DNA of 64,000 nucleotides. Source: Escherichia phage 4E8. Shown piece by piece: positions 3,177 to 42,277 of this stretch (within the stretch, counting starts at the first letter, position 1; each line of letters begins with the position of its first letter). Under the pieces are notes generated by a model. The model did not search any database. It was not told the origin of the DNA and worked only from the letters and a program-made list of their open reading frames with translations. The stretch is from sequence record OQ689734.1, one strand, 5' to 3'. A program made the translations under genes and the position numbers.

Positions 3177-3206
3177 TTTAGGGCTGACTGGAAAGGGAGG
3201 TGAGAA

Positions 3207-3698: not shown

Positions 3699-3710
3699 TG
3701 GAGGTGCCTT

Positions 3711-4514: not shown

Positions 4515-4523
4515 GGAGGAACT

Positions 4524-7500: not shown

Positions 7501-7544
7501 TGAATGGTTTAACCATAGAGTTTAATGTTGGCGGTCGAAGATAA
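4524..7544 (+). CDS. large tail structural protein with tandem Ig-like (Big_2-type) domains
   Basis: AAGGAGG RBS; repeated ~80-aa T/S/V-rich modules (TVSTADKSISAQIAVNII, TVTITADNGTKSASCQITVI, TAVTQEGDRSATCTVRV). Confidence 0.75.
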   Translation: MALYPIKSLGAVGVIADQAPTDLAPNAFTNAINARFVEQRVFKTGGNAPLSYVEEDKEITPLSFISMPFDYYSAGNSFLIVGTDKKLYKLTDESLTDISRKVATVTKRASASIKIYPVVSQIVPKETSISMNFNQTKTLEVSILPEDANNTALVWEVSNSSYGKVEADTENPKTATLTSYEKEGNLVVTVSTADKSISAQIAVNIIDGDSGIFLSQDTITVRKGGNTTLTAVTGKTPVTWVSSNASVVSVTPNANTLTATLSANGEGTVTITADNGTKSASCQITVIPQIDSITLSQTSVQMSRGTQYVLTATINPSDAPNKSITWTSSNPAIATVSGNSTEAVITGLLAGFTEITAVTQEGDRSATCTVRVDLAGRMMRTSAMALSEPVVDSIQEEETNNTPTESEEVLYFVNEPSGVDTSGMYEGNNFYDYSNVNDMEGFARAALMSSDTPLQSLSLDIIDASLDVGEDIVITANALPEGEYFYQWTVDKAGYVSTTSTTGKSLKLTAIRKGEIKVTCTASQMTQKDYDAFDDYPWYHTIISNCAVATTHYETPQVKEFESEYFVDLPGWGEQTVVDNDGNPSVKKFNWKCERIRAFNNRLFALNMRESNASGVTTHYPLRLRWSNFANENKAPSLWDDYAYDRLTTSDLSANIVGQTEALENGYAGYIDLADSNGSLIDVLPLKDYLFVYTEFETYIGSPTNNTYQPLMFKKLFNDSGILAPECAVEVEGGHFVVTQNDVILHNGASKKSIASNRVKNLLINEICLVNPLATRVHLHQDKKEVWVLYVGPGEPKESFACNKAAVWNYEFDTWSFRTIPYAQCIGLVDPPVLERGPIWADFQEITWDDPSINQLVWRKDANNFRQRITIVGSFLKGFYQVDVGALDYIYDRTNDRIIEKPLEMRLERTGIDFDSVTNEWNQKHINRFRPQVTGTGTYTFEVGGSQFSNEYGHNHSTKEFKVGSDRHVSVRLNHPYLFYNVIDNDVNSNASMNGLTIEFNVGGRR

Positions 7545-7549
7545 CAAAT

Positions 7550-7580
7550 AGGGGCTTCGGCCCCTTTTATTGTTTTTTTT
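7550..7580 (+). terminator. rho-independent terminator
   Basis: aggggc-ttcg-gcccct hairpin followed by TTTTATTGTTTTTTTT. Confidence 0.6.
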
Positions 7581-7594
7581 AATTGGAGGTACTT

Positions 7595-8563
7595 ATGGGT
7601 GCTGGAGGTTTTCGAAAGAATACTGGTAGAAACAACACCACACTTCCGTACAATGTTGGTTTTCTAAACAATGTGCAGGATACAGAAACTTACAACGTTG
7701 CTGTCTATGATGAACTACAAAAAGTTAGTACAGCAACCAATCAAATGTTTCAAGCCATTGATGAAATACATGAAGAAATTGATGTTAGGATTAAAGCTCT
7801 TAATGCGATGAATCTTCAATTTGATGAACTTGAAAATAGAATTACTACAGAGATCGAAACAGCTATTGCTGATATTCAAACACAGATGGGTAACCTATCC
7901 ACTGAAGATATTTGGGATAATTCAGTACAACCGCCAGTTAAGCTAGAAAGTTCTATGGCAGGATTTAAGACCTCTATAGAAGGTAATGAGGTTAAGATAC
8001 AATCTGTTGAGGGAATCGTAAACCAGCAGGGAGAGGAAATTGGCTTAGTTCAAACAGAGATCTCTAATATCAACAGCAGCCTATCTTCTTATATGAAGCT
8101 ATCTGACTACGAGGCTACGTGGGGGGTTAACTCAAATGTCAACGGTAGGTATGCTGGTGTCAAACTAACTAACAATGGCACGAATAGTCAATTCCAAGTA
8201 ACAGCTAACAAGTTTATTGTCGGTGATGGTAACTCTGGTAACACTCCTTTTGTTTTTGAAGGTGGTAGAGCTAGAATGGAATTCGCTGATATCAAGAATG
8301 TCAACATTACAACTGCTCAGATTGCTAATGCTCGAATCCAATTTGCTCAGATTGATAACGTGTGGATTCAAGATGGACAGATTGCTAACCTTACTGCTAA
8401 CAAGATTACTGCTGGCTCTATGTCCGGTTCTAACTGGAGACTTACAGTAGGTGGAGATTTTGTAATGGGTGGTACAGGCGGTTCTCAGTTGTGGATGAAC
8501 GGTAATAGAATAGATTTTTATGATGGGAGTGGAACTCTTCGCATAAGAATAGGGAGTTGGTAA
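7595..8563 (+). CDS. tail fibre-like protein (coiled coil + beta-helix repeats)
   Basis: ATG 5 nt after GGAGGT (ORF track starts at an upstream TTG that lies on the RBS); repeats AQIANARIQFAQIDNVWIQDGQIANLTANKITAG. Confidence 0.65.
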   Translation: MGAGGFRKNTGRNNTTLPYNVGFLNNVQDTETYNVAVYDELQKVSTATNQMFQAIDEIHEEIDVRIKALNAMNLQFDELENRITTEIETAIADIQTQMGNLSTEDIWDNSVQPPVKLESSMAGFKTSIEGNEVKIQSVEGIVNQQGEEIGLVQTEISNINSSLSSYMKLSDYEATWGVNSNVNGRYAGVKLTNNGTNSQFQVTANKFIVGDGNSGNTPFVFEGGRARMEFADIKNVNITTAQIANARIQFAQIDNVWIQDGQIANLTANKITAGSMSGSNWRLTVGGDFVMGGTGGSQLWMNGNRIDFYDGSGTLRIRIGSW

Positions 8564-8564
8564 T

Positions 8565-9599
8565 ATGGCATATGGAATATGGACAAGACCTGTTGGTCCG
8601 GGTCCGGCGGCACCTGCTGACATTTACATCGATAGTGGTAGCACGTTTCCTCAACTCAAGAATAGAGTTAGCGGTAACTTTGCATTTAGTGGAAACATTT
8701 GTGACCTCCCTATAAACGGGTGGGATGGAAGTGGTCAAATAGTTATTGTCCCAACAGGCTCTGTGGTATGGGAAAGATATATACCGCCTAATGTGACCTC
8801 TGACGTATACTGGATAAATAACATCTCAGTTATTAATAACTCTACTTTTCGAGTTACTATGGATTATAATGTTAATGGGTGGATATTTGATATGGCTTTT
8901 AATGTGTATCAGATATGGCCTAGAGCTAATAGAAACTACGGAATTACTTTTTCTAACACAGCTGATTACTTCTCTATTTCTGACTCTGGTACTGTTGGTC
9001 AGTGTATCTGGGCTTGGGAAGGTGACATAAACGGCTCTCTTCAGATACCAGATATTGGAGGTTTTGATATGAGCCGGGCAACTGTTTATGCAAACTGGAG
9101 TCACGGAGGGGCTGGGTTGTTATATAACCCGTCTAACAGGGTTGTTTATGTGTACCAAAACAGGTCTCACGATAACAGTAACACAAACCAAACAGGCTAT
9201 ATTGGTGGTGTTAGGATTGCTGTTTTCTGCGATGGTTCTGGGGTACCAACTCACAACGGTGGCCTAAATATCTTTTCCCCAAATGGGTCTCAGTGCGTAT
9301 TCTCTACCTACAGAACCCCTTTTAGTGTTGAGGGGTTTATGCCTATGAGTGGAGGTAATACATCTCTGGCCTATCCAATGATACCACTGTCTTATGGGGC
9401 TGGGGCTATACGAGGAAGTGCTAGTGGTTGGTACTTTCAACACACAAGATCTCATATGATGAATGGATCTTCTTTTGGGACAGGGTATGGAAGAATGATA
9501 TACTCTTGGTCAAATCGGTATGATCTCGGTGGTGGGGGTGCTCTAGGATTAAGTATTCCGGTATTAGACGCCAAGAAGATTTTTAGAAGCATACAATAA
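8565..9599 (+). CDS. virion structural protein
   Basis: tightly coupled to upstream gene; Asn/Gly/Ser-rich beta-type composition. Confidence 0.6.
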   Translation: MAYGIWTRPVGPGPAAPADIYIDSGSTFPQLKNRVSGNFAFSGNICDLPINGWDGSGQIVIVPTGSVVWERYIPPNVTSDVYWINNISVINNSTFRVTMDYNVNGWIFDMAFNVYQIWPRANRNYGITFSNTADYFSISDSGTVGQCIWAWEGDINGSLQIPDIGGFDMSRATVYANWSHGGAGLLYNPSNRVVYVYQNRSHDNSNTNQTGYIGGVRIAVFCDGSGVPTHNGGLNIFSPNGSQCVFSTYRTPFSVEGFMPMSGGNTSLAYPMIPLSYGAGAIRGSASGWYFQHTRSHMMNGSSFGTGYGRMIYSWSNRYDLGGGGALGLSIPVLDAKKIFRSIQ

Positions 9600-9608
9600 G
9601 GAGAGGAT

Positions 9609-10406
9609 ATGGATAGGATTTTAGGAGTTTCAGAACTAGACCCACTGGTTCAACAAGCTGCTAAGAAGTATGGTATTCCTGCTGCTCTTGTTCATGCGGT
9701 GATTCAGAGGGAGTCTAGTGGTAAACCCTCTGCCGCTTCAGGAACAGGGCCAGTAGGATTGATGCAGATTAGTAAAGGCTTGGCTAAAGATTATGGATAT
9801 AAACTTGAAGATAGGTTAGACCCTGCAAAGAATATTGACATGGGTGCTAGATATTTAAGAGATAACCTGAAAGCTTTTGACGGCGATGTGAGGAAGGCTT
9901 TGGTGGGGTATTCAGAAGGGACTGGTGGTGCTAAGCAAATGTTTGCTGGTAAGAAAGGGTTTACACCTCAAGCTTTAGATTCAATGAATAATAAGCTGTT
10001 CCTACCATTCTTTGATAAGAATACAGCAGCGGCACAAGTGGCTAATCCTGTAGGTGCTTTGAAAGCAGTACAGCCTGTGGACCAGTTTGATTCTAATACG
10101 CTGACTAGAGAAGGTGCTGCAAACGCTCCTACTCAAGCAGAGATAGCTGCAAGCAAGGCTGGAGCTTTAGGTGGTCGTCCTGTAGAGTTTTACTCTGATG
10201 AACAATCTACTGGGGAAAATCAAAAACCTCAACAGAACTTTGGAAATGCTGTATTGGCAGCTGCTTCTATGCTTGCAGGAAAACAGCCTAACTCTCAAAC
10301 CGTACAGAGAGCACATGCCCCTACTCAAGCAGGTTCTCGATACAGTCCACAAACACAAGCCGTGCTGAGACGTTTGTCTAGCATAGGTACTGATATTTAC
10401 AGATAA
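9609..10406 (+). CDS. lytic transglycosylase (SLT domain), probably virion-associated
   Basis: AAGGAGAGG RBS; motif VIQRESSGKPSAASGTGPVGLMQI (catalytic Glu-Ser ... G-x-MQ). Confidence 0.8.
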   Translation: MDRILGVSELDPLVQQAAKKYGIPAALVHAVIQRESSGKPSAASGTGPVGLMQISKGLAKDYGYKLEDRLDPAKNIDMGARYLRDNLKAFDGDVRKALVGYSEGTGGAKQMFAGKKGFTPQALDSMNNKLFLPFFDKNTAAAQVANPVGALKAVQPVDQFDSNTLTREGAANAPTQAEIAASKAGALGGRPVEFYSDEQSTGENQKPQQNFGNAVLAAASMLAGKQPNSQTVQRAHAPTQAGSRYSPQTQAVLRRLSSIGTDIYR

Positions 10407-10415
10407 GGAGGACGT

Positions 10416-11468
10416 ATGTCTCTTTTCGGTTCTGCTCCTAAATCTAAGACTACGGTAGCTCCGTCTTCTCAGGTTGATGCTCTTCTGAAACAGATTGTAG
10501 CAAATGCTCAGGCTATGAATCAAAACGATCAAGGTTTTATTGGTCGTAACGTAGCGGGTTTTAATGAAAACCAAACAGCAGCTCTTTCTAATTTAGCAAA
10601 TTCTAACACACTCAACCAACTCAGTCAGATGTACACCCCTAGAACTCAACAAGGGTTGGACCAGATGAATGAGTTGGCTCAGAAATATCAAAACCTAGTT
10701 AATAAAGGTGGTATCACTGCTCAGGATGTTAATAATTTTAGCTCTGGATTGAATAGCTCTGCTTTAGCTAAGTCTACAGGTAAAGCTGCTGCTAATGTAT
10801 CTCTTGGTAATGGTTCTGATTCAGGTTCTCTTAGACGTGCTGCTGCTCAAGGTGCTGCTCTCTCTTCAGCGAATACAAACCTTTCTCGTTCTATTCAAGG
10901 TAAAAACATGGGTGTTAGCAATCTTATGAATAACAACTCCTATCAGCAAGGTTTGCTCAATGCTCAATCGGGTCTAGCAAATCAGAATCTGAATCTAGGA
11001 GCTGCTGGGGTACAAGCTGGTCAACAGGCAATACAGAATCAGCTCACTGCTGGGAATCTTCAACAACAGCAAGATCAACTCCAATCTAACAACAATTGGG
11101 AGAATGCTATTGGCAATCAGCAGTATGGTTGGAATCGGCTTAACAACCAGCTTAATGTATTAAACTCAGTAAGCCCAATGGCTGGGTACACCATTACTAA
11201 CAAAGGTGCTGCCCCTAATGTTTCACAACAAATCCTTGGTGCTGGGGTTACTGGTCTTGGTATTGCTGGACGTCTAGGTGCTTTTACCCCTAATCAGCAA
11301 ACTACTAATGCTTGGAACTCATACAATGCTTCTGGAGGTCAAGCTGGGATGGCTGGTCCTATGATTGGTGGCTCAAACCTGTCTCAACAGAATGGTCAGA
11401 GCAACTGGTTATCTACCGCAGGAAGTAATATCTTAGGTGGTGTTCTAGGAGCCTTTGGAGCAAATTAA
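10416..11468 (+). CDS. Q/N-rich internal virion protein, paralog 1
   Basis: AAGGAGG RBS; MSLFGSAPKSKTT N-terminus; Gln/Asn-rich; Gly-rich C-terminus. Confidence 0.7.
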   Translation: MSLFGSAPKSKTTVAPSSQVDALLKQIVANAQAMNQNDQGFIGRNVAGFNENQTAALSNLANSNTLNQLSQMYTPRTQQGLDQMNELAQKYQNLVNKGGITAQDVNNFSSGLNSSALAKSTGKAAANVSLGNGSDSGSLRRAAAQGAALSSANTNLSRSIQGKNMGVSNLMNNNSYQQGLLNAQSGLANQNLNLGAAGVQAGQQAIQNQLTAGNLQQQQDQLQSNNNWENAIGNQQYGWNRLNNQLNVLNSVSPMAGYTITNKGAAPNVSQQILGAGVTGLGIAGRLGAFTPNQQTTNAWNSYNASGGQAGMAGPMIGGSNLSQQNGQSNWLSTAGSNILGGVLGAFGAN

Positions 11469-11477
11469 GGAGGAGCT

Positions 11478-12446
11478 ATGGCTTTATTCGGTGGTGGGAG
11501 TAGCAAGACTACTTCTAAAATGACAAGACCTGACTACATTCAGTCCTATATTGATCAGTTGGTCAATCAGGTTAATAACACTAGTTCAGGCGATTATGTG
11601 TATCGAGAAAATGTTGGACTTAATCAAAACCAGCAAGAAGCTCTGAACAATCTATCACAATCTGGTGCATTAGGTGCACTTTCTTCTCAGTATATGGATG
11701 CTGCTCAATCTGGCTTAGGTTATCTAGATAACGCATACTCTGGATATAACAACCTATCTAACTCTGGTCAAATCACTGGAGAACAGATTGGTGCTCTTGC
11801 AGGCCAGCTCTATGACGACGAGGCTGTGCAAGCAGCTATTGCAGCGAATAATGAACAAACCCAACAGAGTTTGGCTAGGAATGCACTTCCTCAAATCTCT
11901 CAGCAGTTTGCTGGTCAGCAAGGTTCTGGTGCACGTATGGCTAAATCTTTTGCTCAGGGTGATGCTCTGAACCAGATGCAGAACACAGCAACTAATATTA
12001 CTAATAGTGCCTATGACTCCGCTCTAACCCAAGCACAGAACATTCTTTCTGGTAATAGACAAACACAAGCATCTGCTTTAGGTGGTTTATCTAACATTGG
12101 CTCCAATCTTGCTAATCTAGGAAACCAAGCTGGTCAGTTATCACAACAGCAAATGATGAATCAGTGGAATGCAGGACTGCAACAGCAGCAACAACAGCAA
12201 TCTGATTTGAACAATGCTTATGAGAATGCTCAGAATGCTGCTAATTGGGGTTGGCAGGATATTAACAATCAACTAGGTGCTGCCGGGGTTCTTAATGGGG
12301 CTTTAGGGACAACCACAACTACTAAAACATCTGGTGGTAGTGGAGGCTTCCTAGGTGGTGCTGCGAGTGGTGCTGCTGCTGGTTCAGCTTTTGGCCCTTG
12401 GGGTGCTTTAGCTGGCGGTGTTATCGGTGGATTAGCTAGCTCTTAA
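11478..12446 (+). CDS. Q/N-rich internal virion protein, paralog 2
   Basis: AAGGAGG RBS; MALFGGGSSKTTS N-terminus aligns with paralog 1 (shared NVAGFNENQ / NVGLNQNQ block). Confidence 0.7.
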   Translation: MALFGGGSSKTTSKMTRPDYIQSYIDQLVNQVNNTSSGDYVYRENVGLNQNQQEALNNLSQSGALGALSSQYMDAAQSGLGYLDNAYSGYNNLSNSGQITGEQIGALAGQLYDDEAVQAAIAANNEQTQQSLARNALPQISQQFAGQQGSGARMAKSFAQGDALNQMQNTATNITNSAYDSALTQAQNILSGNRQTQASALGGLSNIGSNLANLGNQAGQLSQQQMMNQWNAGLQQQQQQQSDLNNAYENAQNAANWGWQDINNQLGAAGVLNGALGTTTTTKTSGGSGGFLGGAASGAAAGSAFGPWGALAGGVIGGLASS

Positions 12447-12460
12447 TTAGGAGAATAATT

Positions 12461-14128
12461 ATGCAACAAACTTCTTATGCGTATCTTCGCAGTCAAGACC
12501 CAAGAAATCAGATTTATGGTGTTAAACAAGGGGCCGCTTCGGCCTCTCCATACATGGCAAGACCTGCTTATCCAGCTGCTGATGTTTCTATGTATAACCG
12601 GAGACCTCCTGCTTCTCCTGTAGGTTTGTCTTCTCTTGTTGCCAATGCTCAAGAAGACCAAGAAGCTATGTTAAATCCGGGATTTAGACAGCGCCTTATG
12701 GAAGCAGAGAATCAAGGAACTCCTACAAGCCTTCAGGGTATTGATATTGGTGAACCAGCTCCTGCTATGAATAACCCAGATCTATCCTCTGATGAGGGTC
12801 TACAAGCTGCTGGGTTGATGCCTAGTGACCCACTTCCTGTTACTCCTCCTCGTAAACCTCTGGAAGAAACAGATAAAGAGTTCTCTCCAGTTCAAGTGGA
12901 ACAGGCTCAGAATGTTATTAACACTTTAGCTAATAGTAATCCAGCTCCTGAAGGTATGGCTGGTGCAACTCGTGCTAAAGACCAAGAACGTATTAATAAT
13001 GATATTATGGAAGTAGCTAAAGCTAAAGACCCAGCACAAGCTTGGAATGAGCTTCAGAAGCAACCGTTCTATCAGAAGTCTAGTTTCTACACTGGCTTAA
13101 TGGGTGTTGGTCTTTCTATCATGTCAGGTAAATCCCCTATTGAAGCTTTCCAGATTGGTTCTGGCTTAGCTGCTCAGGATGAAACTAAACAACAACTAGA
13201 AGCCAATCGCGATGCTCTGTTAGAACAAGGCTACTCTCAAGATTCAGTTGCTGCTGCAATTGCTTCGGGAGATCCTTCTCTTCTCAAGATGCGTCAGATG
13301 AGTCCTCAGGAGAAAATGGCTCTTGCTGCTCAGGATGAAGAACGTGCCAATCGTGAGTGGGATAGACGTCAACAGATTCAAGAGAATTCGATGCGGGAAC
13401 GTGCTGCTGAAACTCGTCGTGCTGCTGAAGAACGTGCTAATGCTCAGTTCGAGAAACAGAAAGAACTTATTGGATATCGTGATCAAGTTAAAGCAGAGCG
13501 TGCAGAGAAAGCTGCTCAGAGCTTTACTTTCAACCCTAAAGAAGTTCGTCTGGCTCAGAATACAGCAGAAGGTACTGTTGCTAAACAGTGGGCAGAAAAA
13601 GCAGGTCTGTTTAATCAGTCTCACAAAGACTTGGATTTAGCTGACAAAGCTATTAAAGATAAGGATTATCAAACTGCTCGTTCTGCTTACATGCAGGCTA
13701 TCATGAACTCCGCAAGGGCAGAAATTGGTGCTAACCGCTCTCTCCAAGCTGATGACTTGGCTCACTTTGCAGAAGACCCGTCAATCTTTGTTAAGGTTGG
13801 TAATACTTGGTCCCTTAAAGCAGGTTATCGTCCTTCTGATGCTGCTCTATCATACGCTCGTAAGCAGGCAACTGTTGGTGCTACTTCCGCTGAGAAAGGT
13901 GTGAAGGATGCTAAGAAAGCAACGATCGAAGCGTATATCGGCTCTGGTATGGATAAGAAACGAGCGACAGCTCTTGTCAACCGTGCTATTCCTTCTGCTG
14001 GTTTCTATGACCCATTCGGTACGTTTGAGAGTGAAGCTGAAGCAGCTGTTGGTGGAGATGCTACAAATCCTCGACTAACAGGTGCTCTTTCTTCTTCAGC
14101 GGCAGATACGAGTTGGATGTTCCAGTAA
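12461..14128 (+). CDS. internal virion protein
   Basis: AGGAGA RBS; Pro/Ala-rich N-terminal half, charged coiled-coil C-terminal half. Confidence 0.7.
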   Translation: MQQTSYAYLRSQDPRNQIYGVKQGAASASPYMARPAYPAADVSMYNRRPPASPVGLSSLVANAQEDQEAMLNPGFRQRLMEAENQGTPTSLQGIDIGEPAPAMNNPDLSSDEGLQAAGLMPSDPLPVTPPRKPLEETDKEFSPVQVEQAQNVINTLANSNPAPEGMAGATRAKDQERINNDIMEVAKAKDPAQAWNELQKQPFYQKSSFYTGLMGVGLSIMSGKSPIEAFQIGSGLAAQDETKQQLEANRDALLEQGYSQDSVAAAIASGDPSLLKMRQMSPQEKMALAAQDEERANREWDRRQQIQENSMRERAAETRRAAEERANAQFEKQKELIGYRDQVKAERAEKAAQSFTFNPKEVRLAQNTAEGTVAKQWAEKAGLFNQSHKDLDLADKAIKDKDYQTARSAYMQAIMNSARAEIGANRSLQADDLAHFAEDPSIFVKVGNTWSLKAGYRPSDAALSYARKQATVGATSAEKGVKDAKKATIEAYIGSGMDKKRATALVNRAIPSAGFYDPFGTFESEAEAAVGGDATNPRLTGALSSSAADTSWMFQ

Positions 14129-14153
14129 TCTAAGACCTAAGTCCTATCTCTTA

Positions 14154-14164
14154 TAATGTATATA
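14154..14164 (+). promoter_or_regulatory. TAATGTATATA motif, candidate phage-sigma-dependent promoter element
   Basis: exact motif ~35 nt upstream of the 1481-aa gene start; same 11-mer recurs at 23855 (+) and 23782 (-), near-copies at 30561 (-) and 35382 (-). Confidence 0.4.
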
Positions 14165-14198
14165 GGAGGTAGGACATTTTTATTTATAAGGAGACGTT

Positions 14199-17100
14199 AT
14201 GGCTAATTTAAAATCGTGGGAAGAAGCTTCCAAAGCTCCTGCGTATCTGAATGCCTCTCCAGAGCAACAGGCTCAAATGAGAGAACAATACAAGGCAGCA
14301 GGGGGCACTATTCCTGAGACTCAACCACAAGAGCAACCACAACAAGAAGAACGAGGTGTTATTGGGGAGTTTGCTCAAGGTGTGTCTAACGCTCTTCAAT
14401 CAGGTGGTGCTAACATTGCAGCTAGTGCTGCTAAAGGTTTAGGTGGGCTGGTAGAGATTGGTGAAAACCTAACTGGTTCGGAAACAAGCTATGGTAAGCG
14501 CATTCAAGAGAACTCTAAGCAATTGCTGGAAGAACGCTTATCCAAGATAGAAGATGGTTTTGGTAAAACAGCTGGCCAGTATGCTGGTGTTGCTGCTGAT
14601 ATTGGTTTGACAGTTGCAAACCCTGCTGTTGCTGCTGCTGTTATCGCAGCTCGTGAAACAGGTCGTGCTTATGCTGATCAAACTCCTAAAGAAGATGAAG
14701 ATAAGTCAATCTTAGATGCTGCTCTTGTTGGTGGTGCTAACTACGCTGCTCAGAAGATACTTCCGGGCATGACTGGTACAGCTTCTACTACTCTAGGTCG
14801 TGTAGGACAAAGCGTAGCCTCTAACGCGGTTGCTGGTGCTAAGGGTGGTGCTATTGTTGGTGCTGCTGAAGCTCAGAACAAATATGGAGATGATACTACT
14901 CTAGCTAATGTCTTGGAAGGGGCTATTGAAGAAGGTGCACTCGGTGCCGCTTATGGTGGGGCGATTGGTGGGGTTCATGGGTTAATAAGTCGTCCTAGTC
15001 CTCAAGTGTTTGATCGTACTCCTGAGCATGTTAAGACTGACATTGCTGCTGAAGATGAGGCTATTCGTAAAGCTGCTAACGCTGATGAACTTCGTGAAGC
15101 CTATGCTAAAGCTGAGAATGCTAATGCTGCCTCTGCTTTAAACCTTCTGGATGAAAATGGTTTCCGAATCACAGATGCAGTTGCTATGGACTCTCCTGCT
15201 GTTCAGCGTATCTTAAATACAGACCAAAGTCGTGCAGAGAAGGCTGCTACGGTTCAGAAAGATAGCTCTAACGTTCCCGGTCTTAATCCTTTAGCTTCTC
15301 CTAAGAAGACTCAAGGTAAAGCTTTTGCTGACAATGAATACAACCAGAAACAAGCTGTGGCAATGAAAGATGCAATGGCTGACTACACTAAAGATAACAC
15401 CAAAGCCCTTACTGATGTTCTAGACAATCTAGACCGAGAGTTAGTAGCTCTGAGAGCAAGTGGTGATTTTACTGGTAGTGCTATTGACATTAAAAACCGT
15501 ACTCAAGCTGATCGTGATTTTATTGATGCTTATAAAACTTTTTACAGTGAAGCTAATCGTTTCAAAGCTCGTGATGGTGAAGACCTAAACAACTTCATTG
15601 ATAAAGCTACTCAGTTGCAGAAGCTCTCTGAAAATGTTTCTCCAGAAATGAAGAAGGCCATTGGTGGATTAAAGAAACTAAAAGGTATGCCTGAAGGTTT
15701 TAACCCTATCCAAGATGCTTTCACTCTGAATAATACAGCTAAGTTCATGAGTAACCAAGACCGTGGTTGGACCTCTCTGACTGATGACGGTTTTCGTGAA
15801 GCTCCGGCTCCTGTGTTAGTTAAGAATCCTCTCGGTGCAGCCAAGTATGTACTTAACCGCTTTACTTCCGATCGTGCTCGTGCTCAACGTGAGAAGCAAC
15901 AGTCAGCTAATAGTGAAGCTATCCGCTCTTTGGCTAGGGCTGATTTAGAAGTACAACGAGCTAGGACTCAGGCTGAAGAAGCAAGAGCAAAAATGGAAGA
16001 AGAACCAACCACAGAAGACATCAAATTCCGTACTCAAAATGATGCACCTTCCGAACCGGTTCGTGAGGAGCCTTCTGCTACTACTGTGACGGAAGAAATT
16101 CCTTCCTCTCCAGCTCCAACTGAAACACCTCTTACTGCGAGGGATTTGGTTGCTCAAAGACGTGCTCTCCAACAAGCAGAGCTTAGACGTCAAGAAGCTG
16201 AAGCTGCTCAGGCTCAAGAAAGTGCTACACCAGAACCTGAACCACAGCAAGAAGCTCTTACAGCTAGAGAATTAGTAGCTCAGCGTAGGGCTGTAGCAGA
16301 GGCTAAGAAACGTCAAGAGGCAGAAGAAGCAGAACGTGCTAAAGAAGCTCCTGAGGAAGCCGTAGAAGAGCCTAAAGAGAAACCTGAGCCATTACCTGCT
16401 CGTGCTCCTAAAGCTCCTGAGAAGGCTCCTGAGCCTGTTAAACCGTCACTTGGTGTAGAGCGTCTAGCTTCTATGTCAACTGCTGCTCGTCAAGCAACGA
16501 AAGACCGTGCTGATCGATTTGCTCGTTCTTTGTATTCGGCTGCTGCTAAAGCTAAAGCCACTGCGGAAAACTTCCTTTCTTACAAAGGAGATCCTAAAGA
16601 GCTTATGCGTCGTATCCGTCAGGAAGACCAAGCAAACAACACACAGCGTCATGAAGAGATGGCTAGAAATCAACTAGCTTCTCAGCAAGGCATTGCTTCT
16701 GCTAAATCTCAACATGTTCGTGCTTCTTTTGCTGATTGGGTGAAAGAACGTGGGTTGCCTTCTGATATCGCTACTAAAGCCTTACGGGCTGAAGAGAAAG
16801 GTTTAGGTGGGAACGTCACAAGTCTAGATTCACTGAAGCGAAGAGCTGAGCGTTTATATCAGAAACAAAGAGATGATGAGTTTGACCGCCTCTATCGAGA
16901 GGCTCTGGAAGAGAATAAAGCTTTTGATAAGAGAGATGCTCCTAAACTGGTAGACCAGAAGAAAGAGCTTCAGGATGAAATTGGTGCGTTGCTTGATGCT
17001 GAACCGTTACGTCCTGCTCAGAAAGATGCTATGCGTAGGATTATGGAAGACTTCGTGGAGAGTAAGTTTAAATCTTCAGAGAGAGCTGGAAGGGTTGAGG

Positions 17101-18644
17101 CTTTGGAAGTTGGTCAGATGAAGGATGTGTGGGATGGGTTTATTAATACCTATAACCGAGAAGTTAACATGTTCAACAAGGCTAACAAGAATTCTCAATA
17201 CGAAGCAGCAGCTAAACACTTGCAAGCACGTCAAGAACGTCTTGAGACGCTCCGTAACAGAGCTAAAGCTCGCAGTGATGCTAAGGCAGCCATGGAGGCT
17301 GAGAAGCAGTCCTTGGAGGCTATAGCGGCTCAGAAATCAGAGATAGAGAAGATGTTCAAAGAATTGCCTGAAAGTGTCAGAGAGGCTCAGGAAGGGCGTA
17401 CTTTGAAACAGCTTGCTGCTCACCATGATAAGAACTCTCCAGTACCACCAGAGCGTTTCCGTAGTATCATTGAACGTATTCACAACGCTGAGAGTGATTA
17501 CCTCGATCGCAAACGTCGTTTGACCGAAGCAGAGGAAGATGCTCGTGAAGCTAAGTGGAATAGGATGTATGAACAGGCTGAGGAAATGAACCGTAAGTTT
17601 GATATCGACTCTAGAGTGAAGAGAGATAAGGCTCTGAAGGAAGCTCAAGAACGAGAGAATGACTTAATGGCAGTTCAACGTCAGCGTGATGACATTCATA
17701 AGCGTTTAGTCAATACTCTGGAAGAGAAGGGAGTTTCTAGGGAAGATGCTGAAGCGTATGCTGGGTCTTACATGGATAATCGGTATGCTTTGTTAGAGAA
17801 ACCAATGACTCCAGTGGAACATCAGAATGCTCGTGCTCGTATTGAATCTGACGTAGAGAAGTTTGTTAAGAAATACGAAACAGCTACTCCAATCGAAAGA
17901 GAGATTGCTAAAGCAACTGGTGATGCAGATGGAAAACCTTCTGACTTAGATGCAGAAACATTAAAAGCTATTGAAGATGCTCGTAAAGTTGATTCCGATT
18001 TTAAGAAACTCTTAGATGAAGAGAAGGAAATGGAGAAGATTCGTTCAGCTCTACCTGAAGATGAAAGATCTCAGGCGAACTCTGATATTCTGGAAAGTAT
18101 TAAGAAACAGGAAGATGATTTTGCTAGCAAAGCAGAGAAAGCTTTTATTGAAGGGAAAGATTTGCAGGAGTTAGCAAGTGTTGCAGAAGTTCTAGATAGG
18201 GTTCATGGTGCAGACAAGGCTGGTAACAACCGTCGATTTGTACGTGCTCTACAGACTGCTGCCGAGAACAAGAAACGTTATGGGGATAATCCAGTGGCTT
18301 GGTTTAGTGCTGATGATTACTCTGCTATTGCGAAACTTGGTGCTGCTTCGGCAGGTGGTAACAAATCTCGAGCACTTGAGAAAATCTTTGGTTCTACAGC
18401 AGAACAAGCTAAAGGGAAACTTTTAGGGCGGGATGATGTAGCTAAGATTAGACGTGTGATTGAAGCGAATCCCAATGTTAAGATTCCTTCTTACAAGACA
18501 ACTACTCGACAAGAGTACATGCAGTTCTTGGAGAAGTATAATGACGAGGGAGAGTTGAAAGTCAAACGTGGTTCTCTGTCTGACAAGTTGGAGAGAGGTA
18601 AGCGTCAAGCTAAACTCCGTGTTAGAGTTCGAGCTAAGGAGTAA
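14199..18644 (+). CDS. large internal virion / ejection protein (1481 aa)
   Basis: AAGGAGA RBS; very long Ala/Glu/Lys/Arg-rich coiled-coil protein; internal tandem repeat LTAR[DE]LVAQRRA...RQEAE at ~16130-16330. Confidence 0.8.
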   Translation: MANLKSWEEASKAPAYLNASPEQQAQMREQYKAAGGTIPETQPQEQPQQEERGVIGEFAQGVSNALQSGGANIAASAAKGLGGLVEIGENLTGSETSYGKRIQENSKQLLEERLSKIEDGFGKTAGQYAGVAADIGLTVANPAVAAAVIAARETGRAYADQTPKEDEDKSILDAALVGGANYAAQKILPGMTGTASTTLGRVGQSVASNAVAGAKGGAIVGAAEAQNKYGDDTTLANVLEGAIEEGALGAAYGGAIGGVHGLISRPSPQVFDRTPEHVKTDIAAEDEAIRKAANADELREAYAKAENANAASALNLLDENGFRITDAVAMDSPAVQRILNTDQSRAEKAATVQKDSSNVPGLNPLASPKKTQGKAFADNEYNQKQAVAMKDAMADYTKDNTKALTDVLDNLDRELVALRASGDFTGSAIDIKNRTQADRDFIDAYKTFYSEANRFKARDGEDLNNFIDKATQLQKLSENVSPEMKKAIGGLKKLKGMPEGFNPIQDAFTLNNTAKFMSNQDRGWTSLTDDGFREAPAPVLVKNPLGAAKYVLNRFTSDRARAQREKQQSANSEAIRSLARADLEVQRARTQAEEARAKMEEEPTTEDIKFRTQNDAPSEPVREEPSATTVTEEIPSSPAPTETPLTARDLVAQRRALQQAELRRQEAEAAQAQESATPEPEPQQEALTARELVAQRRAVAEAKKRQEAEEAERAKEAPEEAVEEPKEKPEPLPARAPKAPEKAPEPVKPSLGVERLASMSTAARQATKDRADRFARSLYSAAAKAKATAENFLSYKGDPKELMRRIRQEDQANNTQRHEEMARNQLASQQGIASAKSQHVRASFADWVKERGLPSDIATKALRAEEKGLGGNVTSLDSLKRRAERLYQKQRDDEFDRLYREALEENKAFDKRDAPKLVDQKKELQDEIGALLDAEPLRPAQKDAMRRIMEDFVESKFKSSERAGRVEALEVGQMKDVWDGFINTYNREVNMFNKANKNSQYEAAAKHLQARQERLETLRNRAKARSDAKAAMEAEKQSLEAIAAQKSEIEKMFKELPESVREAQEGRTLKQLAAHHDKNSPVPPERFRSIIERIHNAESDYLDRKRRLTEAEEDAREAKWNRMYEQAEEMNRKFDIDSRVKRDKALKEAQERENDLMAVQRQRDDIHKRLVNTLEEKGVSREDAEAYAGSYMDNRYALLEKPMTPVEHQNARARIESDVEKFVKKYETATPIEREIAKATGDADGKPSDLDAETLKAIEDARKVDSDFKKLLDEEKEMEKIRSALPEDERSQANSDILESIKKQEDDFASKAEKAFIEGKDLQELASVAEVLDRVHGADKAGNNRRFVRALQTAAENKKRYGDNPVAWFSADDYSAIAKLGAASAGGNKSRALEKIFGSTAEQAKGKLLGRDDVAKIRRVIEANPNVKIPSYKTTTRQEYMQFLEKYNDEGELKVKRGSLSDKLERGKRQAKLRVRVRAKE

Positions 18645-20948: not shown

Positions 20949-21537
20949 AGAGATCTCTCCGTGTCCTTTCAACAATCCAATTTAAATAATCTACTGCATC
21001 TTCTACGGTAGAGTCGTTTACTAAATAGTATGTGTTTCTCTGACTGCCTTCGATGTAAGAACGAGAGTCTCCTTCAAATGAGCAGTCATCACGAAGAATC
21101 TGAACTACCTGAACATGGAAATGCTCTTCCAGTTCTGAAACCTCTGCTTTGAATCCACCGTCAGAGAAGACGATAACATCTTTCTGCCCTAACAACTGTT
21201 GCTTGATACTACTAACAGCCAACTTACCCATACAGGTATCACCAAACATTGGCTTCAAGTAGCTCTCACTAGTTGCAATCATCAAATCTCGAACTGACTT
21301 ACCGCCCCACTCAGGACGGCTTCGTTCTTTCCATTCTCGGTCGTTGTACAGCTCCATGAACCCATAAAGAGGGAGACCTAATGCAGCAGCAGCCACTCGA
21401 TACATAGGCTCCTTAAAAGCCTTTACATGCGGTCTAAACTCATCATTACCAGTGGTCTTCTCTAACCAAGCATTAGCGATTGTATCTTTACCACAACCCG
21501 GAGGTCCATTCAGAATTACTACTAATGGTTTACTCAT
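20941..21537 (-). CDS. P-loop nucleotide kinase (dNMP-kinase-like)
   Basis: Walker A ILNGPPGCGKDT; ~200 aa. Confidence 0.55.
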   Translation of the reverse strand: MSKPLVVILNGPPGCGKDTIANAWLEKTTGNDEFRPHVKAFKEPMYRVAAAALGLPLYGFMELYNDREWKERSRPEWGGKSVRDLMIATSESYLKPMFGDTCMGKLAVSSIKQQLLGQKDVIVFSDGGFKAEVSELEEHFHVQVVQILRDDCSFEGDSRSYIEGSQRNTYYLVNDSTVEDAVDYLNWIVERTRRDLYV

Positions 21538-22187
21538 TATTGAATCATCCCTTGAAGATCTTCTTTATCAAAGTGCTTCTCTACTACAGCTTCATACAGA
21601 TCACGATTCTCTGCATAACGGCGATAGAAGGTTCCGTGTGAAATTCCCAGCTCCTGCTGGATGTGATCATGTGGGATACCGAGAAAGAGCATTGAGAACA
21701 TGCTTGCCATCTTACGGTTTTCCATAATATCACTCAAGTCTTGGAAGAAGAAAAAGATTCTAGATTCCAAGAACGGGTCTCCAGTAGAATCATGCTTATC
21801 CATCGCAATCTCTAAAGGACTTTCCCATGAATTCATCTCAGGAGGTCTAAACATATCAGCCTCTGGAATAGAGTAGATACGTCGGTCTCCAACTGTCTGA
21901 CGATTAGAACGAATCGACCAGATGATATTCTTGACACGATAAGTCATGTGCTCAATATCTTTTTCATCAGTGAGCAGAAGTTCTTCTTGCTTTGCAAATA
22001 CAAAACGCCAAGCGTTCAGTAACACTTCCTGAGCAACATCCTCTGCCTCGTGATAATCTTTAATGTCATACATAAAATACTTATGCACAACTTTCCAGTT
22101 CTCTCGATAAAATTCATCGAAGGTTGGATAATACTTAATAGGAATGCCATGAATACGATAGCGTGTAGGTGTTGTCTTTTTCTTCAT
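21537..22187 (-). CDS. phage-encoded sigma factor (ECF-like regions 2 and 4)
   Basis: [17 protein letters not shown] resembles sigma region 2; C-terminal [16 protein letters not shown] resembles region 4 HTH. Confidence 0.65.
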
Positions 22188-22983: not shown

Positions 22984-23724
22984 TTAGAATGGGCTATCAT
23001 CTTCTTCAAAGGTTGATTGCGGCTCTTCATTAATGGTAGGGATGCTTGGAGTAGCATCTTTCTGTTCAGTATCAGAAGCTTTAGTAACTTCACGACCAGC
23101 CAGAGGGATATTCTTAGCATCGTTAGCTTGAGTCAAGAGGTTACGTTGGAATGGGAAGATTGCTTGATAAGCAGCTAAGTTAGCATCAGTCTCAGCATAC
23201 GGTTCGAAGAAGATCAACTCACTACGAGGAGCACCTACCGCGTCACGATATTTAGTCGGGATTGGAGTGATGCTTTTAATGGAGTTTTTCTTCTCACCAG
23301 CTTTATTGGTGTAAGAGTTAACCAGAATGTTAACAGGCTGACCTAACAGCATATCTTTAAACCAACCCAAATCACCTTTCAGTGCTTGAACACTTGGGTC
23401 GATCATTTTAATCAGATTTAGAATACCAGAGTTCTTAGCTCGTGGGTTTACATCGAAAGATTTAAACTGGCAAGCAGGACGAGGGTCCAGAGATTTGCCT
23501 TCATTATCAGTCCCTGTTGCATCTACGCCAATCAGCTCAAAAGCTAAGTCCATACGGAAAGCTGGGTTCTTAGGGGTAACTGCTTTGGTCTTAGGGTCAA
23601 TCCAAGGGTCACGATTGTGAACACCTAAACCTACAACACGAACAATACGTGCTTCGTACTCACCATCAGGGATTACATCGTAGTTGGATTTACGGGATAC
23701 AGACAGTTCAGGGATCATAGACAT
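22984..23724 (-). CDS. single-stranded DNA-binding protein
   Basis: acidic C-terminal tail ending EEDDSPF (terminal Phe as in E. coli SSB DDDIPF and T7 gp2.5). Confidence 0.6.
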   Translation of the reverse strand: MSMIPELSVSRKSNYDVIPDGEYEARIVRVVGLGVHNRDPWIDPKTKAVTPKNPAFRMDLAFELIGVDATGTDNEGKSLDPRPACQFKSFDVNPRAKNSGILNLIKMIDPSVQALKGDLGWFKDMLLGQPVNILVNSYTNKAGEKKNSIKSITPIPTKYRDAVGAPRSELIFFEPYAETDANLAAYQAIFPFQRNLLTQANDAKNIPLAGREVTKASDTEQKDATPSIPTINEEPQSTFEEDDSPF

Positions 23725-23781
23725 ATTAATATTTCCTTATATAAATTTAAGATTGTTGCTCTCTTTGAGCGGTTTGTATAC

Positions 23782-23792
23782 TATATACATTA
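23782..23792 (-). promoter_or_regulatory. TAATGTATATA motif (minus strand)
   Basis: exact 11-mer read on minus strand in AT-rich ORF-free intergenic region. Confidence 0.35.
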
Positions 23793-23854
23793 CACTTATA
23801 CAGATAAGGTTCTATTATACTATAACCTTTTTGGTAGTAGATAATAACAAATAG

Positions 23855-23865
23855 TAATGTATATA
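23855..23865 (+). promoter_or_regulatory. TAATGTATATA motif (plus strand), divergent from the copy at 23782
   Basis: exact 11-mer; no + strand gene follows, so may drive an antisense or noncoding transcript. Confidence 0.3.
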
Positions 23866-24139
23866 TGGTATAGCTAGTAAAGCTATTGCAGGCTTGTATA
23901 TTGGGCAATTCATAGAATCCCTTGCAAGTACCGAAGGGCAGGAGCCACCTGCGAGATAAAAATAGAGAATTAAGGAATCCTTGATTTAGGTTGTAGGGAC
24001 TCCTAGGGACTTTGATTCTCTATTTAAAAGAATATTAATTACTTACTACCTAAATAATTAACTAACTTACTTAAACCAAATTCAAGAATAATAGATAAAA
24101 AGATTATTCCTAAGAAAGCTAAAAAGTAAAGGATATAAG

Positions 24140-24304
24140 TTACCATTCAAGTAAACCTTTAAAGTTAGTTTGTTCTACTATCCTCTGATAACGAAGATTA
24201 GAATCAGCTTGTTTCTTTAACATCTCATTATATTTATCTCTGATAGAGTCTTTATAAACTACAGGTTCTTTAAATAACGAGATCTTGTTCTTTTCTTCTT
24301 TCAT
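24140..24304 (-). CDS. hypothetical protein
   Basis: track ORF 24140-24388 overlaps phosphatase gene heavily; internal Met MKEEKNK reduces overlap. Confidence 0.35.
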   Translation of the reverse strand: MKEEKNKISLFKEPVVYKDSIRDKYNEMLKKQADSNLRYQRIVEQTNFKGLLEW

Positions 24305-26375: not shown

Positions 26376-26542
26376 TACTCCCTTTCATAAATTTTAAGAA
26401 CTGTACCGCCATCTGCTTCAATCTGAGCAACTACTTCATCGCGCTCTTCATCAGAATAAACCAGTTGGTTGTGAAATTTGCCTGTACTATCTTGGAAATA
26501 TACATTCCATTTTGGAGCAGGTTTACGAATCAAATCCATCAT
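26375..26542 (-). CDS. small hypothetical protein (55 aa)
   Basis: sub-threshold ORF with GAGGAG RBS; stop overlaps next start. Confidence 0.35.
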   Translation of the reverse strand: MMDLIRKPAPKWNVYFQDSTGKFHNQLVYSDEERDEVVAQIEADGGTVLKIYERE

Positions 26543-30560: not shown

Positions 30561-30571
30561 AGTATACATTA
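30561..30571 (-). promoter_or_regulatory. TAATGTATACT promoter-like motif (minus strand)
   Basis: ~30 nt upstream of the 30530 start. Confidence 0.3.
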
Positions 30572-35381: not shown

Positions 35382-35392
35382 TATATACATTT
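35382..35392 (-). promoter_or_regulatory. AAATGTATATA promoter-like motif (minus strand)
   Basis: one mismatch from TAATGTATATA; ~38 nt upstream of the 35344 start. Confidence 0.3.
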
Positions 35393-35416
35393 GAGAGTGA
35401 TCATATCTACTACCAA

Positions 35417-41852: not shown

Positions 41853-42038
41853 TTATTCTACTTCGAAGTGTTTGATCACACCAGTCAGTACATCAGATTG
41901 GAACGTACCTACTAGCTCTGTGCCTCGGAAAAAGTTAACACTTGTTCCAAGTGATTCAAAGCGATCTGCTTGAATGTCCAGAGATTGAATATTTCCTTCT
42001 GCTGACATTGTACGAAACATGATTGTGTATTTATTCAC
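41853..42038 (-). CDS. hypothetical protein
   Basis: 61-aa ORF. Confidence 0.4.
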   Translation of the reverse strand: MNKYTIMFRTMSAEGNIQSLDIQADRFESLGTSVNFFRGTELVGTFQSDVLTGVIKHFEVE

Positions 42039-42277
42039 AGACTTGTTACTCCCTTATCTGCTTGTGCAATTGCGATGATACGCTCAGCACATTCCATTGA
42101 ATATTTATCACCTCGTTTGAGGAAGGTGATGATTGCAGAGAACTGATTACCAATCATTCTCTTATTTGTGATACCAAACTCTTCACAGAGTTGGTTGATA
42201 GCTTTACGAGAGCCTACAATCAGAGGCTCTTTTTCTTCGGTCATTCCACGGCTGATCAAATCTTCGATAGACAACAT
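42035..42277 (-). CDS. hypothetical protein
   Basis: 80-aa ORF, ATGA coupling with downstream gene. Confidence 0.45.
   Translation of the reverse strand: MLSIEDLISRGMTEEKEPLIVGSRKAINQLCEEFGITNKRMIGNQFSAIITFLKRGDKYSMECAERIIAIAQADKGVTSL

What the first reader, a model, noticed from the sequence alone, without database searches (positions are those of the whole stretch)
23782..23865. Recurrent TAATGTATATA motif, a candidate promoter element for the phage sigma factor
The 11-mer TAATGTATATA occurs exactly at 14154 (+, ~35 nt before the 1481-aa late gene), at 23855 (+) and at 23782 (minus). Near-copies read on the minus strand lie at 30561 (TAATGTATACT), 35382 (AAATGTATATA) and ~57036 (TGTATATAG core), each 30-80 nt upstream of a minus-strand start. 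The phage encodes an ECF-like sigma factor (21537-22187). From memory, a similar TAATGTATA-type element was reported for phiEco32 middle/late promoters; that needs checking. The divergent pair at 23782/23855 sits in a 415-bp ORF-free AT-rich gap; the + copy has no gene to drive.
Basis: partly seen in the sequence, partly recalled or inferred. Interest (0 to 1): 0.6.

Follow-up and report, generated by a model that had tools for sequence, protein, structure and literature searches.

The report
Known phage-sigma promoters plus hidden RNA
The repeated TAATGTATATA is the already-published promoter signal of this phiEco32-type phage's own sigma factor, so the motif is ordinary; but its one 'orphan' copy is an unlisted, fully conserved promoter pointing at a ~157-nt non-coding block kept in all 98 related phage genomes, probably an undescribed small RNA.

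Summary
TAATGTATATA occurs exactly at 14154(+), 23782(-) and 23855(+), against 0.04 expected. The window is a phiEco32-like coliphage. Four copies are position-for-position orthologs of mapped phiEco32 promoters: 14155+ is P26, 23785- is P40, 30564- is P58 and 35385- is P68. The ~57036 site is not a match.

The added result concerns the 'orphan' + copy at 23855. It is present in phiEco32 and in all but one of the relatives examined, but is absent from the published list of six promoters. It shares with P68 the upstream block TTGGTAGTAGATA at identical spacing, including the -37G and -34A contacted by gp36 in the cryo-EM structure. It faces a ~157-nt ATG-free block (23870-24026). That block is at least 90% identical in 96 of 98 genomes, while the neighbouring gene 40 is mostly 80-90%. 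The block begins with a covarying 5' hairpin at the predicted start site and ends in a long terminator-like hairpin. It matches no Rfam family.

Best reading: a seventh gp36 promoter driving an unannotated small RNA. No transcript data exist, and the RNA's function is unknown.

The parts
14154..14164 (+). Ortholog of phiEco32 late promoter P26 (-10-like element TAATGTATATA). The predicted start is about 14169, and the ATG of the 1481-aa gene is at 14199.
   Evidence: Exact motif. The flanks match phiEco32 P26, including AAGACCTAAGTCCT upstream and TATAGGnGGTAGGAC downstream. P26 is transcribed by the gp36 holoenzyme in vitro (PMC12276001).
23782..23792 (-). Ortholog of phiEco32 middle promoter P40. 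The predicted start is about 23777. It drives gene 40 (22984-23724) and the downstream operon that includes the sigma gene.
   Evidence: Exact motif. TAATGTATA is invariant in all aligned relatives. P40 is in the published promoter table.
23750..23773 (-). Invariant leader segment of the P40 transcript (5' UTR of gene 40).
   Evidence: Every column is identical in 15 genomes. Its function was not examined.
23831..23843 (+). Upstream (-39 to -27) block TTGGTAGTAGATA of the orphan promoter 'Pplus'. It is identical to the block upstream of P68.
   Evidence: There are only two exact copies in the window, here and at 35404-35416(-). Both have the same 12-nt spacing to AATGTA. The block places G at -37 and A at -34, the bases contacted by the gp36 C-terminal domain on P68 (PMC12276001). 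TGGTAGTA.AT is invariant in 24 sequences while the spacer varies.
23855..23865 (+). -10-like element of Pplus (TAATGTATATA), the orphan copy. The predicted start is A23870.
   Evidence: Exact motif. The TAATG plus TATA core columns are invariant in all 24 aligned rows, although HC-25922 has a 2-nt TA insertion inside the element and L076 reads AATGTATAC. It is present in phiEco32 at 36705+. The one clear exception is metagenome contig L075, which reads AATATATA. The site is not in the published list of six promoters.
23870..24026 (+). Candidate ~157-nt non-coding RNA. It consists of 5' hairpin H1 (23870-23886), a swappable central module H2 (about 23892-23929), hairpin H3 (23938-23952) and a long 3' hairpin H4 (23960-24025).
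   Evidence: Positions 23887-24035 are 100% identical to phiEco32, although the gene-40 protein is only 83.9% identical. The 205-nt promoter-plus-RNA block is at least 90% identical in 96 of 98 phage records and is almost never annotated. An equal-length piece of gene 40 falls at 80-90% in 76 of 98 records. Only 20- and 21-aa TTG ORFs exist on the + strand. There is no Rfam or tRNA hit. Folds are, and covariation in H1 is shown.
23960..24025 (.). Terminator-like long hairpin shared by both strands. On the minus strand it is followed by UUUUUAU and would end the gene-41 operon. On the plus strand it is followed by UUUAAAA and would end the candidate RNA.
   Evidence: Sequence and folds. It is nearly invariant in all relatives. 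The simple terminator scan did not call it, because the loop is too large for that scan.
30561..30571 (-). Ortholog of phiEco32 middle promoter P58 (TAATGTATACT). The ATG is at 30530.
   Evidence: The downstream 30 nt match phiEco32 P58.
35382..35416 (-). Ortholog of phiEco32 middle promoter P68: the AAATGTATATA element (35382-35392) plus the TTGGTAGTAGATA block (35404-35416). The ATG is at 35344.
   Evidence: The context is nearly identical to phiEco32 P68. P68 was the promoter used in the cryo-EM open complex.
21537..22187 (-). Sigma factor gene, the ortholog of phiEco32 gp36.
   Evidence: 80% identity to gp36. Residues E79, H80, Y83, R84, W90, S91, S94, N95, Y186 and R187 are all conserved when the alignment is read. 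It matches PDB 9m7y_F at E=3.5e-118. The Pfam Sigma70_r2 hit is weak.
42035..42277 (-). Ortholog of gp79, the sigma-70 inhibitor and co-activator of the gp36 holoenzyme.
   Evidence: 76% identity to phi32_79. The role is taken from PMC12276001.

Best explanation
The motif is the -10-like recognition element of promoters read by host RNA polymerase carrying the phage's gp36-type sigma factor, helped by the gp79 homolog. gp36's N-terminal domain reads A-14, A-13, T-12 and G-11 and opens the DNA from -11. Its C-terminal domain touches the -35 region, and transcription starts about 7 nt after TAATGTATA.

In this window four copies are the orthologs of phiEco32 promoters P26 (late) and P40, P58 and P68 (middle). 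The fifth copy (23855+, 'Pplus') is a complete P68-type promoter pointing away from gene 40. I infer that in the middle and late phases it starts at about A23870 and makes a ~157-nt non-coding RNA. That RNA begins directly with a protective 5' hairpin, carries an exchangeable central module, and ends at the long hairpin that also terminates the converging gene-41 operon.

Shown here: motif identity, orthology, conservation, promoter architecture, absence of coding potential, and covariation in the 5' hairpin. Inferred: that Pplus fires, where the RNA ends, and what the RNA does. My best guess for its role is a stable regulatory RNA. It would act either through its swappable module or as antisense to the 3' end or read-through of the converging operon.
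For: Motif identity: the published consensus and six mapped promoters.

Host machinery in the window: a gp36 ortholog with all contact residues and a gp79 ortholog.

Orthology: one-to-one mapping of the window sites to phiEco32 P26, P40, P58 and P68.

Pplus as a promoter:
- It is present in phiEco32.
- It shows a bipartite footprint: TGGTAGTA.AT and the TAATG/TATA core are invariant, while the 12-nt spacer varies in sequence but not in length.
- Its upstream block is identical to that of P68, with G-37 and A-34.
- In ES17-type phages a ~150-bp insertion separates Pplus from P40, yet Pplus stays next to the downstream block.

Downstream block:
- It is more conserved than the flanking coding DNA across 98 genomes.
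- It is non-coding, with indels and a module swap that break any frame.
- The 5' hairpin starts exactly at the predicted +1 and shows compensatory changes: C-G, A-U and U-A at one pair and U-A and G-C at another; 0 of 500 shuffles reach the covariation score.
- One-sided changes give G.U on the + strand but would give A.C on the - strand: H1 pair 6:18 in 4 of 13 and 5 of 7 sequences, and H4 pair 107:149 in one sequence.
Against: There are no transcript data for this strand in any source I could read. The primary paper (Pavlova et al. 2012) and the genome paper (Savalia et al. 2008) are not held, so I cannot exclude that they tested or mentioned this site.

Covariation is confined to the first hairpin. 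The other helices never vary, which is neutral for structure. The + strand's lower folding energy (20 of 20 variants) is mostly compositional, because the z-scores of the two strands are similar at -2.34 and -2.60.

The + strand U-tract after the 3' hairpin is short (UUU then AAAA), so termination may be leaky. One metagenome contig has G-11 changed to A with the block intact. No target was found: the longest complementarity elsewhere in the window is 12 nt, the same as for shuffled controls, and there is no similarity to E. coli genomes.
Confidence: 0.7

Rival explanations
1. Pplus binds the gp36 holoenzyme, but its purpose is at the DNA level. Transcription into the conserved block would activate or prime a replication origin, as the paired promoters do at the T7 primary origin or as RNA II does for ColE1. 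On this view the block is conserved as an origin rather than as a free RNA.
For: A conserved promoter fires against the direction of every neighbouring gene, and an AT-rich stretch follows at 24030-24140. The block is extremely conserved. No origin has been assigned for these phages in the papers read.
Against: The AT-rich stretch is a conserved 35-aa ORF (PHROG hit), and it is replaced in several relatives that keep the block. No iteron-like repeats were seen apart from TAGGGAC occurring twice inside the 3' hairpin. The compensatory and G.U changes in the 5' hairpin point to RNA structure. GC skew simply follows gene orientation.
Confidence: 0.1
2. The conserved block belongs to the minus strand, as the terminator and 3'-end processing region of the gene-41 operon. 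The + motif copy would then be a non-productive or merely modulatory sigma-binding site that tunes the adjacent P40, for example through back-to-back polymerase competition or recruitment.
For: The 3' hairpin followed by UUUUUAU is a good minus-strand terminator. P40 and Pplus lie back to back with their -40 edges about 3 bp apart (coordinates). P40 drives the operon that contains the sigma gene, so fine control is plausible.
Against: About 90 nt of the conserved block (23870-23959) lie beyond the minus-strand terminator, where terminated minus transcripts do not reach. ES17-type phages insert ~150 bp between P40 and Pplus without disturbing Pplus or the block. Several substitutions keep pairing only on the + strand. 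Pplus has the full -35 block of an active promoter, P68.
Confidence: 0.15
3. The recurrence is chance or a compositional artefact of an AT-rich genome, and the copies have no shared function.
For: The 8-mer core alone is not significantly enriched, and one copy (26499-) is intragenic.
Against: The 11-mer occurs 3 times against 0.04 expected. Five copies sit in intergenic DNA at positions orthologous to mapped promoters. They are invariant across relatives while the neighbouring bases vary.
Confidence: 0.01
4. The + copy drives a small protein-coding gene that annotation missed.
For: Two short TTG-initiated ORFs of 21 and 20 aa exist on the + strand.
Against: There is no ATG anywhere in 23870-24030 and no ribosome-binding site. 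Single-base indels and a complete swap of the central module across relatives destroy any reading frame.
Confidence: 0.02

Closest known systems
[quoted passage not shown] 2012, as cited in PMC8948821, PMC4331800 and PMC12276001)
   Same: The same consensus tAATGTAtA, and a sigma 80% identical with all DNA-contact residues. The gp79 co-activator is present. Four window copies sit at orthologous positions with near-identical flanks. Pplus shares the P68 -35 block, including G-37 and A-34.
   Different: Pplus is not among the six published promoters. It points against the gene cluster and has no protein-coding gene downstream. The published bioinformatic search used only the gene-sense strand of intergenic regions (PMC4331800), which would have missed it.
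Salmonella phage 7-11 gp47-dependent late promoters (GTAAtg-16-aCTA; PMC8948821)
   Same: A phage-encoded sigma of the same wider phage group, with promoters at similar genome positions, including upstream of the gene-40 homolog (P48).
   Different: The consensus is different and bipartite, and the sigma is only about 15% identical. The gap upstream of the gene-40 homolog is only about 75-100 bp or absent in 7-11, GAP52 and Proteus J3S. There is no room for the RNA block, so it is specific to the phiEco32 subgroup.
Small phage RNAs with their own promoter and terminator lying between or against operons (lambda oop RNA, P22 sar RNA; from general knowledge, not checked here)
   Same: A short, non-coding transcript made from a dedicated promoter in the opposite direction to neighbouring genes. 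It ends at a hairpin and overlaps the end of a converging transcript.
   Different: There is no sequence or Rfam relationship. The RNA is longer (~157 nt), with a swappable central module. It depends on a phage sigma rather than host sigma-70. Antisense action is not demonstrated.
T4 middle transcription (AsiA/MotA sigma appropriation)
   Same: It is functionally analogous: a phage inhibitor of sigma-70 region 4 paired with a phage specificity factor switches polymerase to middle promoters. The comparison is made in PMC12276001.
   Different: The proteins are unrelated and the promoter element is different. Here a replacement sigma is used, rather than a remodelled sigma-70.

Membership tests
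phiEco32-type gp36 promoters | Core element AATGTA within the consensus tAATGTAtA | tested here: met
   14154+, 23782-, 23855+, 30561- and 35382- all carry AATGTAT. The 57036 site does not.
phiEco32-type gp36 promoters | The cognate sigma (gp36 type) is encoded by the same genome and has conserved DNA-reading residues | tested here: met
   ORF 21537-22187(-) is 80% identical to gp36. E79, H80, Y83, R84, W90, S91, S94, N95, Y186 and R187 are all conserved (one search read). It matches PDB 9m7y_F.
phiEco32-type gp36 promoters | The gp79 co-activator and sigma-70 inhibitor is present | tested here: met
   ORF 42035-42277(-) is 76% identical to phi32_79.
phiEco32-type gp36 promoters | Located 25-60 nt upstream of a middle or late gene, on the sense strand, at a position orthologous to a mapped phiEco32 promoter | tested here: met
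   This is met for P26, P40, P58 and P68. It is NOT met for Pplus (23855+), which has no sense-strand gene downstream, although the same site exists in phiEco32 at 36705+.
phiEco32-type gp36 promoters | Contacts in the -35 region (G at -37 and A at -34, as on P68) | tested here: met
   Pplus, P68 and P58 have G-37 and A-34 in register. P26 and P40 do not have G at -37 by sequence, so this feature is not universal in the class.
phiEco32-type gp36 promoters | Transcription start 6-8 nt downstream, and initiation by the gp36 holoenzyme in vitro or in vivo | not testable with these tools
   This needs primer extension, 5'-RACE or in vitro transcription. Published data exist only for the six phiEco32 promoters.
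Independent small non-coding RNA gene | A dedicated promoter directly upstream | tested here: met
   Pplus is a bipartite promoter with a phylogenetic footprint. This rests on sequence only.
Independent small non-coding RNA gene | No coding potential | tested here: met
   The block has no ATG, only 20- and 21-aa TTG ORFs. Indels and the module swap break any frame.
Independent small non-coding RNA gene | Conserved secondary structure supported by covariation | tested here: inconclusive
   The 5' hairpin covaries (two pairs with double changes; 0 of 500 shuffles reach the score). The other 37 pairs never vary or vary on one side only.
Independent small non-coding RNA gene | A defined 3' end at an intrinsic terminator | tested here: inconclusive
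   The 3' hairpin is strong, about -23 kcal/mol, but the + strand tail is only UUU followed by AAAA. The scan called no terminator.
Independent small non-coding RNA gene | The transcript is detected | not testable with these tools
   No RNA-seq or Northern data were found for any kuravirus.
Any described RNA family (Rfam 15) | A score at or above the family gathering threshold | tested here: not met
   The only hit in the window is the tRNA-Arg at 54418-54491. The permissive search of 23700-24200 and of the ES17 variant gives only E>0.5 noise.

The most novel reading that the evidence does not exclude
All phiEco32-like phages (about 100 genomes) encode an undescribed small RNA of about 157-185 nt made from a seventh gp36/gp79-dependent promoter. 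Its central module comes in at least two exchangeable versions between an invariant 5' hairpin and 3' domain. This suggests a specificity cassette, for example for different host or competitor targets, in a phage-sigma-controlled riboregulator.
Probability: 0.5. Interest if true: 0.6.

Novelty: new member of a known kind. Interest (0 to 1): 0.42.

Why it matters
The motif itself adds nothing new: it confirms that this phage uses the phiEco32 transcription programme. The useful part is the orphan copy. The phiEco32 gp36/gp79 system is now a structural model for sigma replacement, and the list of its promoters has stood at six. A seventh, universally conserved promoter would extend that regulon to a non-coding product. 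It carries the same -35 contacts as the promoter used for the cryo-EM structure, and it faces a non-coding block more conserved than the surrounding genes. It would also give a simple, directly testable candidate for a phage small RNA in a group of therapeutic coliphages. Finally, it shows that promoter searches restricted to the gene-sense strand can miss such units.

Tried and rejected
- Primary papers: Pavlova 2012 and Savalia 2008 could not be opened. Whether Pplus was ever noticed there remains unchecked.
- Rfam: the gathering and permissive searches found nothing, on the window and on the ES17 variant. ARAGORN found only tRNA-Arg.
- IMG/VR scans: these returned only the same five kuravirus genomes. 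The 15-mer probe gave mostly chance hits.
- Metagenome scan: it added six contigs, plus one chance hit, L078.
- Host mimicry: there is no blastn similarity to 5,426 E. coli genomes. This does not test short seed pairing.
- Trans targets in the phage: the longest complementarity is 12 nt, equal to shuffled controls, so this test is uninformative.
- Strand test by folding energy: the + strand is better in 20 of 20 variants. I reject this as independent evidence because shuffle-normalised z-scores are alike for both strands.
- Distant relatives (7-11, GAP52, Proteus J3S): they have no comparable non-coding block, so they give no deeper comparative signal.
- Small-protein reading: rejected.
- The 57036 and 26499 sites: rejected as promoters.

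Full report
**Observation.** The 11-mer TAATGTATATA occurs exactly three times, at 14154-14164(+), 23782-23792(-) and 23855-23865(+). The expectation is 0.04, and no shuffle out of 100 reaches three copies. With one mismatch allowed, the set gains AAATGTATATA at 35382-35392(-). A scan for the AATGTAT core also finds TAATGTATACT at 30561-30571(-). The 8-mer AATGTATA alone is not significantly enriched, with 6 copies against 2.7 expected. The case therefore rests on the longer match, the position and the conservation.

**Identity of the genome.** The window is a phiEco32-like podovirus of E. coli. It is 96% identical to phage MLP3 and 90-94% identical to SU7, IME267 and others. 98 related phage records were found. 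Genes at 1-18644 run rightward (virion genes). Genes from about 63200 down to 18762 run leftward, as in phiEco32.

**What the motif is.** The literature answers this directly. phiEco32 encodes a sigma factor, gp36. Host RNA polymerase carrying gp36 transcribes the middle and late genes from six experimentally mapped promoters, upstream of genes 6, 13, 26, 40, 58 and 68. Those promoters share the single element tAATGTAtA, and transcription starts 6-8 nt downstream (PMC8948821; PMC4331800; PMC4281155). A 2025 cryo-EM structure of the open complex on P68 places AATGTA at -14 to -9. It shows base-specific contacts to A-14, A-13, T-12 and G-11 by the sigma N-terminal domain, and to G-37 and A-34 by the C-terminal domain. 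It also shows the small protein gp79 stabilising the complex (PMC12276001).

The window encodes a sigma that is 80% identical to gp36. It matches the deposited chain 9m7y_F. Every contact residue named in that paper is conserved (one search read). The window also encodes a gp79 homolog at 76% identity.

**Mapping the copies.** I scanned the whole phiEco32 genome (L021 and L022). AATGTA sites lie exactly upstream of genes 6, 13, 26, 40, 58 and 68. The window copies align with them flank for flank:
- 14155+ is P26.
- 23785- is P40.
- 30564- is P58.
- 35385- is P68.

P6 and P13 lie to the left of the window. The predicted starts give leaders of 26-53 nt.

**The orphan copy.** The + copy at 23855 has no sense-strand gene downstream. 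It is not an accident of this genome. phiEco32 has it at 36705+, and so do all 24 aligned sequences from 14 phage records and six metagenome contigs. The exception is one further contig, L075, with G-11 changed to A. The site is absent from the published table of six promoters. [quoted passage not shown] I could not open the primary 2012 paper.

Three observations argue that this copy is a working promoter.
- It shares with P68, and with no other place in the window, the block TTGGTAGTAGATA. The spacing to AATGTA is the same 12 nt. In the numbering of the structure, this puts G at -37 and A at -34.
- Across relatives the two blocks are invariant. The 12-nt spacer between them changes freely in sequence but never in length.
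- In ES17-type phages about 150 bp, carrying a 47-aa ORF, are inserted between P40 and this promoter. The promoter nevertheless stays attached to what lies downstream of it. It is therefore linked to that downstream block and not to P40.

**What lies downstream.** From the predicted start (A23870) to 24026 the sequence has no ATG and only 20- and 21-aa TTG ORFs. Between this phage and phiEco32, positions 23887-24035 are 100% identical. The adjacent gene-40 protein is only 83.9% identical. Across all 98 records, the 205-nt promoter-plus-block query is at least 90% identical in 96 records and at least 95% identical in 71, with almost no annotation under it. An equal-length piece of gene 40 is 80-90% identical in 76 records. 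A sliding profile shows the same peak.

As + strand RNA the block folds into four elements:
- H1, a hairpin that begins at the very first transcribed base (23870-23886).
- A central module that exists in two unrelated versions: A in this window and phiEco32, B in ECBP2, MN05 and ES17-type phages.
- H3, an invariant hairpin GCAGG-AGMCA-CCUGC whose only variable base is in the loop.
- H4, a long 3' hairpin (23960-25).

Only H1 shows covariation. One pair occurs as C-G, A-U and U-A, and another as U-A and G-C. No shuffle out of 500 reaches the observed covariation score, and slid controls collapse. The remaining helices never vary, which neither supports nor contradicts them.

Two kinds of substitution keep pairing only on the + strand. 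G-C becomes G.U in H1 in many genomes, and A-U becomes G.U in H4 in XT32. The lower folding energy of the + strand is mainly compositional and I do not count it, given the similar z-scores.

The 3' hairpin is followed by UUUUUAU on the minus strand. It is thus also the likely terminator of the converging gene-41 operon. On the + strand the U run is short. No Rfam family matches either version. There is no similarity to E. coli genomes and no significant complementarity elsewhere in the window.

**Distant relatives.** Phages with a different sigma specificity (7-11, GAP52, Proteus J3S) have little or no gap upstream of their gene-40 homolog. The block is therefore specific to the phiEco32 subgroup.

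**Explanation and rivals.** I consider it near certain that the motif is the gp36 promoter element. I consider it more likely than not (about 0.65-0.7) that the orphan copy is a seventh gp36 promoter producing a discrete non-coding RNA of about 157 nt in the middle and late phases. Its function is open. A 5'-terminal hairpin and a strong 3' hairpin suit a stable RNA. The swappable module suggests a specificity determinant. Overlap with the end of the converging operon allows an antisense role.

The main rivals are these:
- A transcription-activated origin (about 0.1).
- A minus-strand terminator region with a merely modulatory sigma site next to P40 (about 0.15).
- Chance, or a missed small protein; both are effectively excluded.

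**Verdict.** The finding as written is correct but already known. The orphan copy is a new, testable member of the known promoter class, with a plausible new small RNA attached. The interest is moderate.

Noticed in passing
window 59950-61720: A stretch of about 1.8 kb with almost no ORFs; the matching phiEco32 region between genes 124 and 125 is also unannotated. It holds consensus sigma-70 promoters on the minus strand: 61339-61312 is TTGACA-16-TATAAT (12 of 12) and 60888-60860 scores 11 of 12. It also has four copies of TTTTTAAAGAGCGG (60754, 60985, 61262, 61372) and inverted partners at 59968-59988. This is probably the early-promoter cluster. The repeat is unexplained.
   Followed up: partly
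window 23750-23773: The leader of the P40 transcript (AAGATTGTTGCTCTCTTTGAGCGG on the + strand) is invariant in all 15 aligned genomes, although neighbouring bases vary. It may be a regulatory 5' UTR element of gene 40. Its CCGCTC...AAAGAG resembles the repeat in the early region.
   Followed up: no
L016 (phage ES17) 790-945; also L005, L020, L075-L080: ES17-type phages carry a ~150-bp insertion with a 47-aa basic ORF (no PHROG match) between the two divergent promoters. The insertion shares the 11-mer CTACCGGAAGG with the variant-B central module of the RNA block. This hints at a common source or at recombination between the two.
   Followed up: partly
L075 (metagenome contig ERZ1034915 NODE-75): This is the only genome in which the orphan promoter reads AATATATA (G-11 changed to A) while the downstream block is intact. 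The change creates a perfect TATAAT hexamer. It could be a natural promoter variant or an assembly error.
   Followed up: no
window 26499-26506 (-): A sixth AATGTATA lies inside a small minus-strand ORF. It has no upstream TTGGTAGTAGATA-type block and no counterpart among the phiEco32 promoters, so it is probably a chance occurrence.
   Followed up: partly
window 24039-24146 (-): A 35-aa hydrophobic ORF (phiEco32 gene 41, PHROG 24970) lies directly after the 3' hairpin. It is replaced by unrelated sequence in ECBP2, TH34, Bas87, Paul, XT32 and LAMP, and the replacement breakpoint lies at the foot of the hairpin.
   Followed up: partly
window 54415-54491 (-): A tRNA-Arg (anticodon TCT) sits at the same relative position as the annotated tRNA-Arg of phiEco32.
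   Followed up: yes
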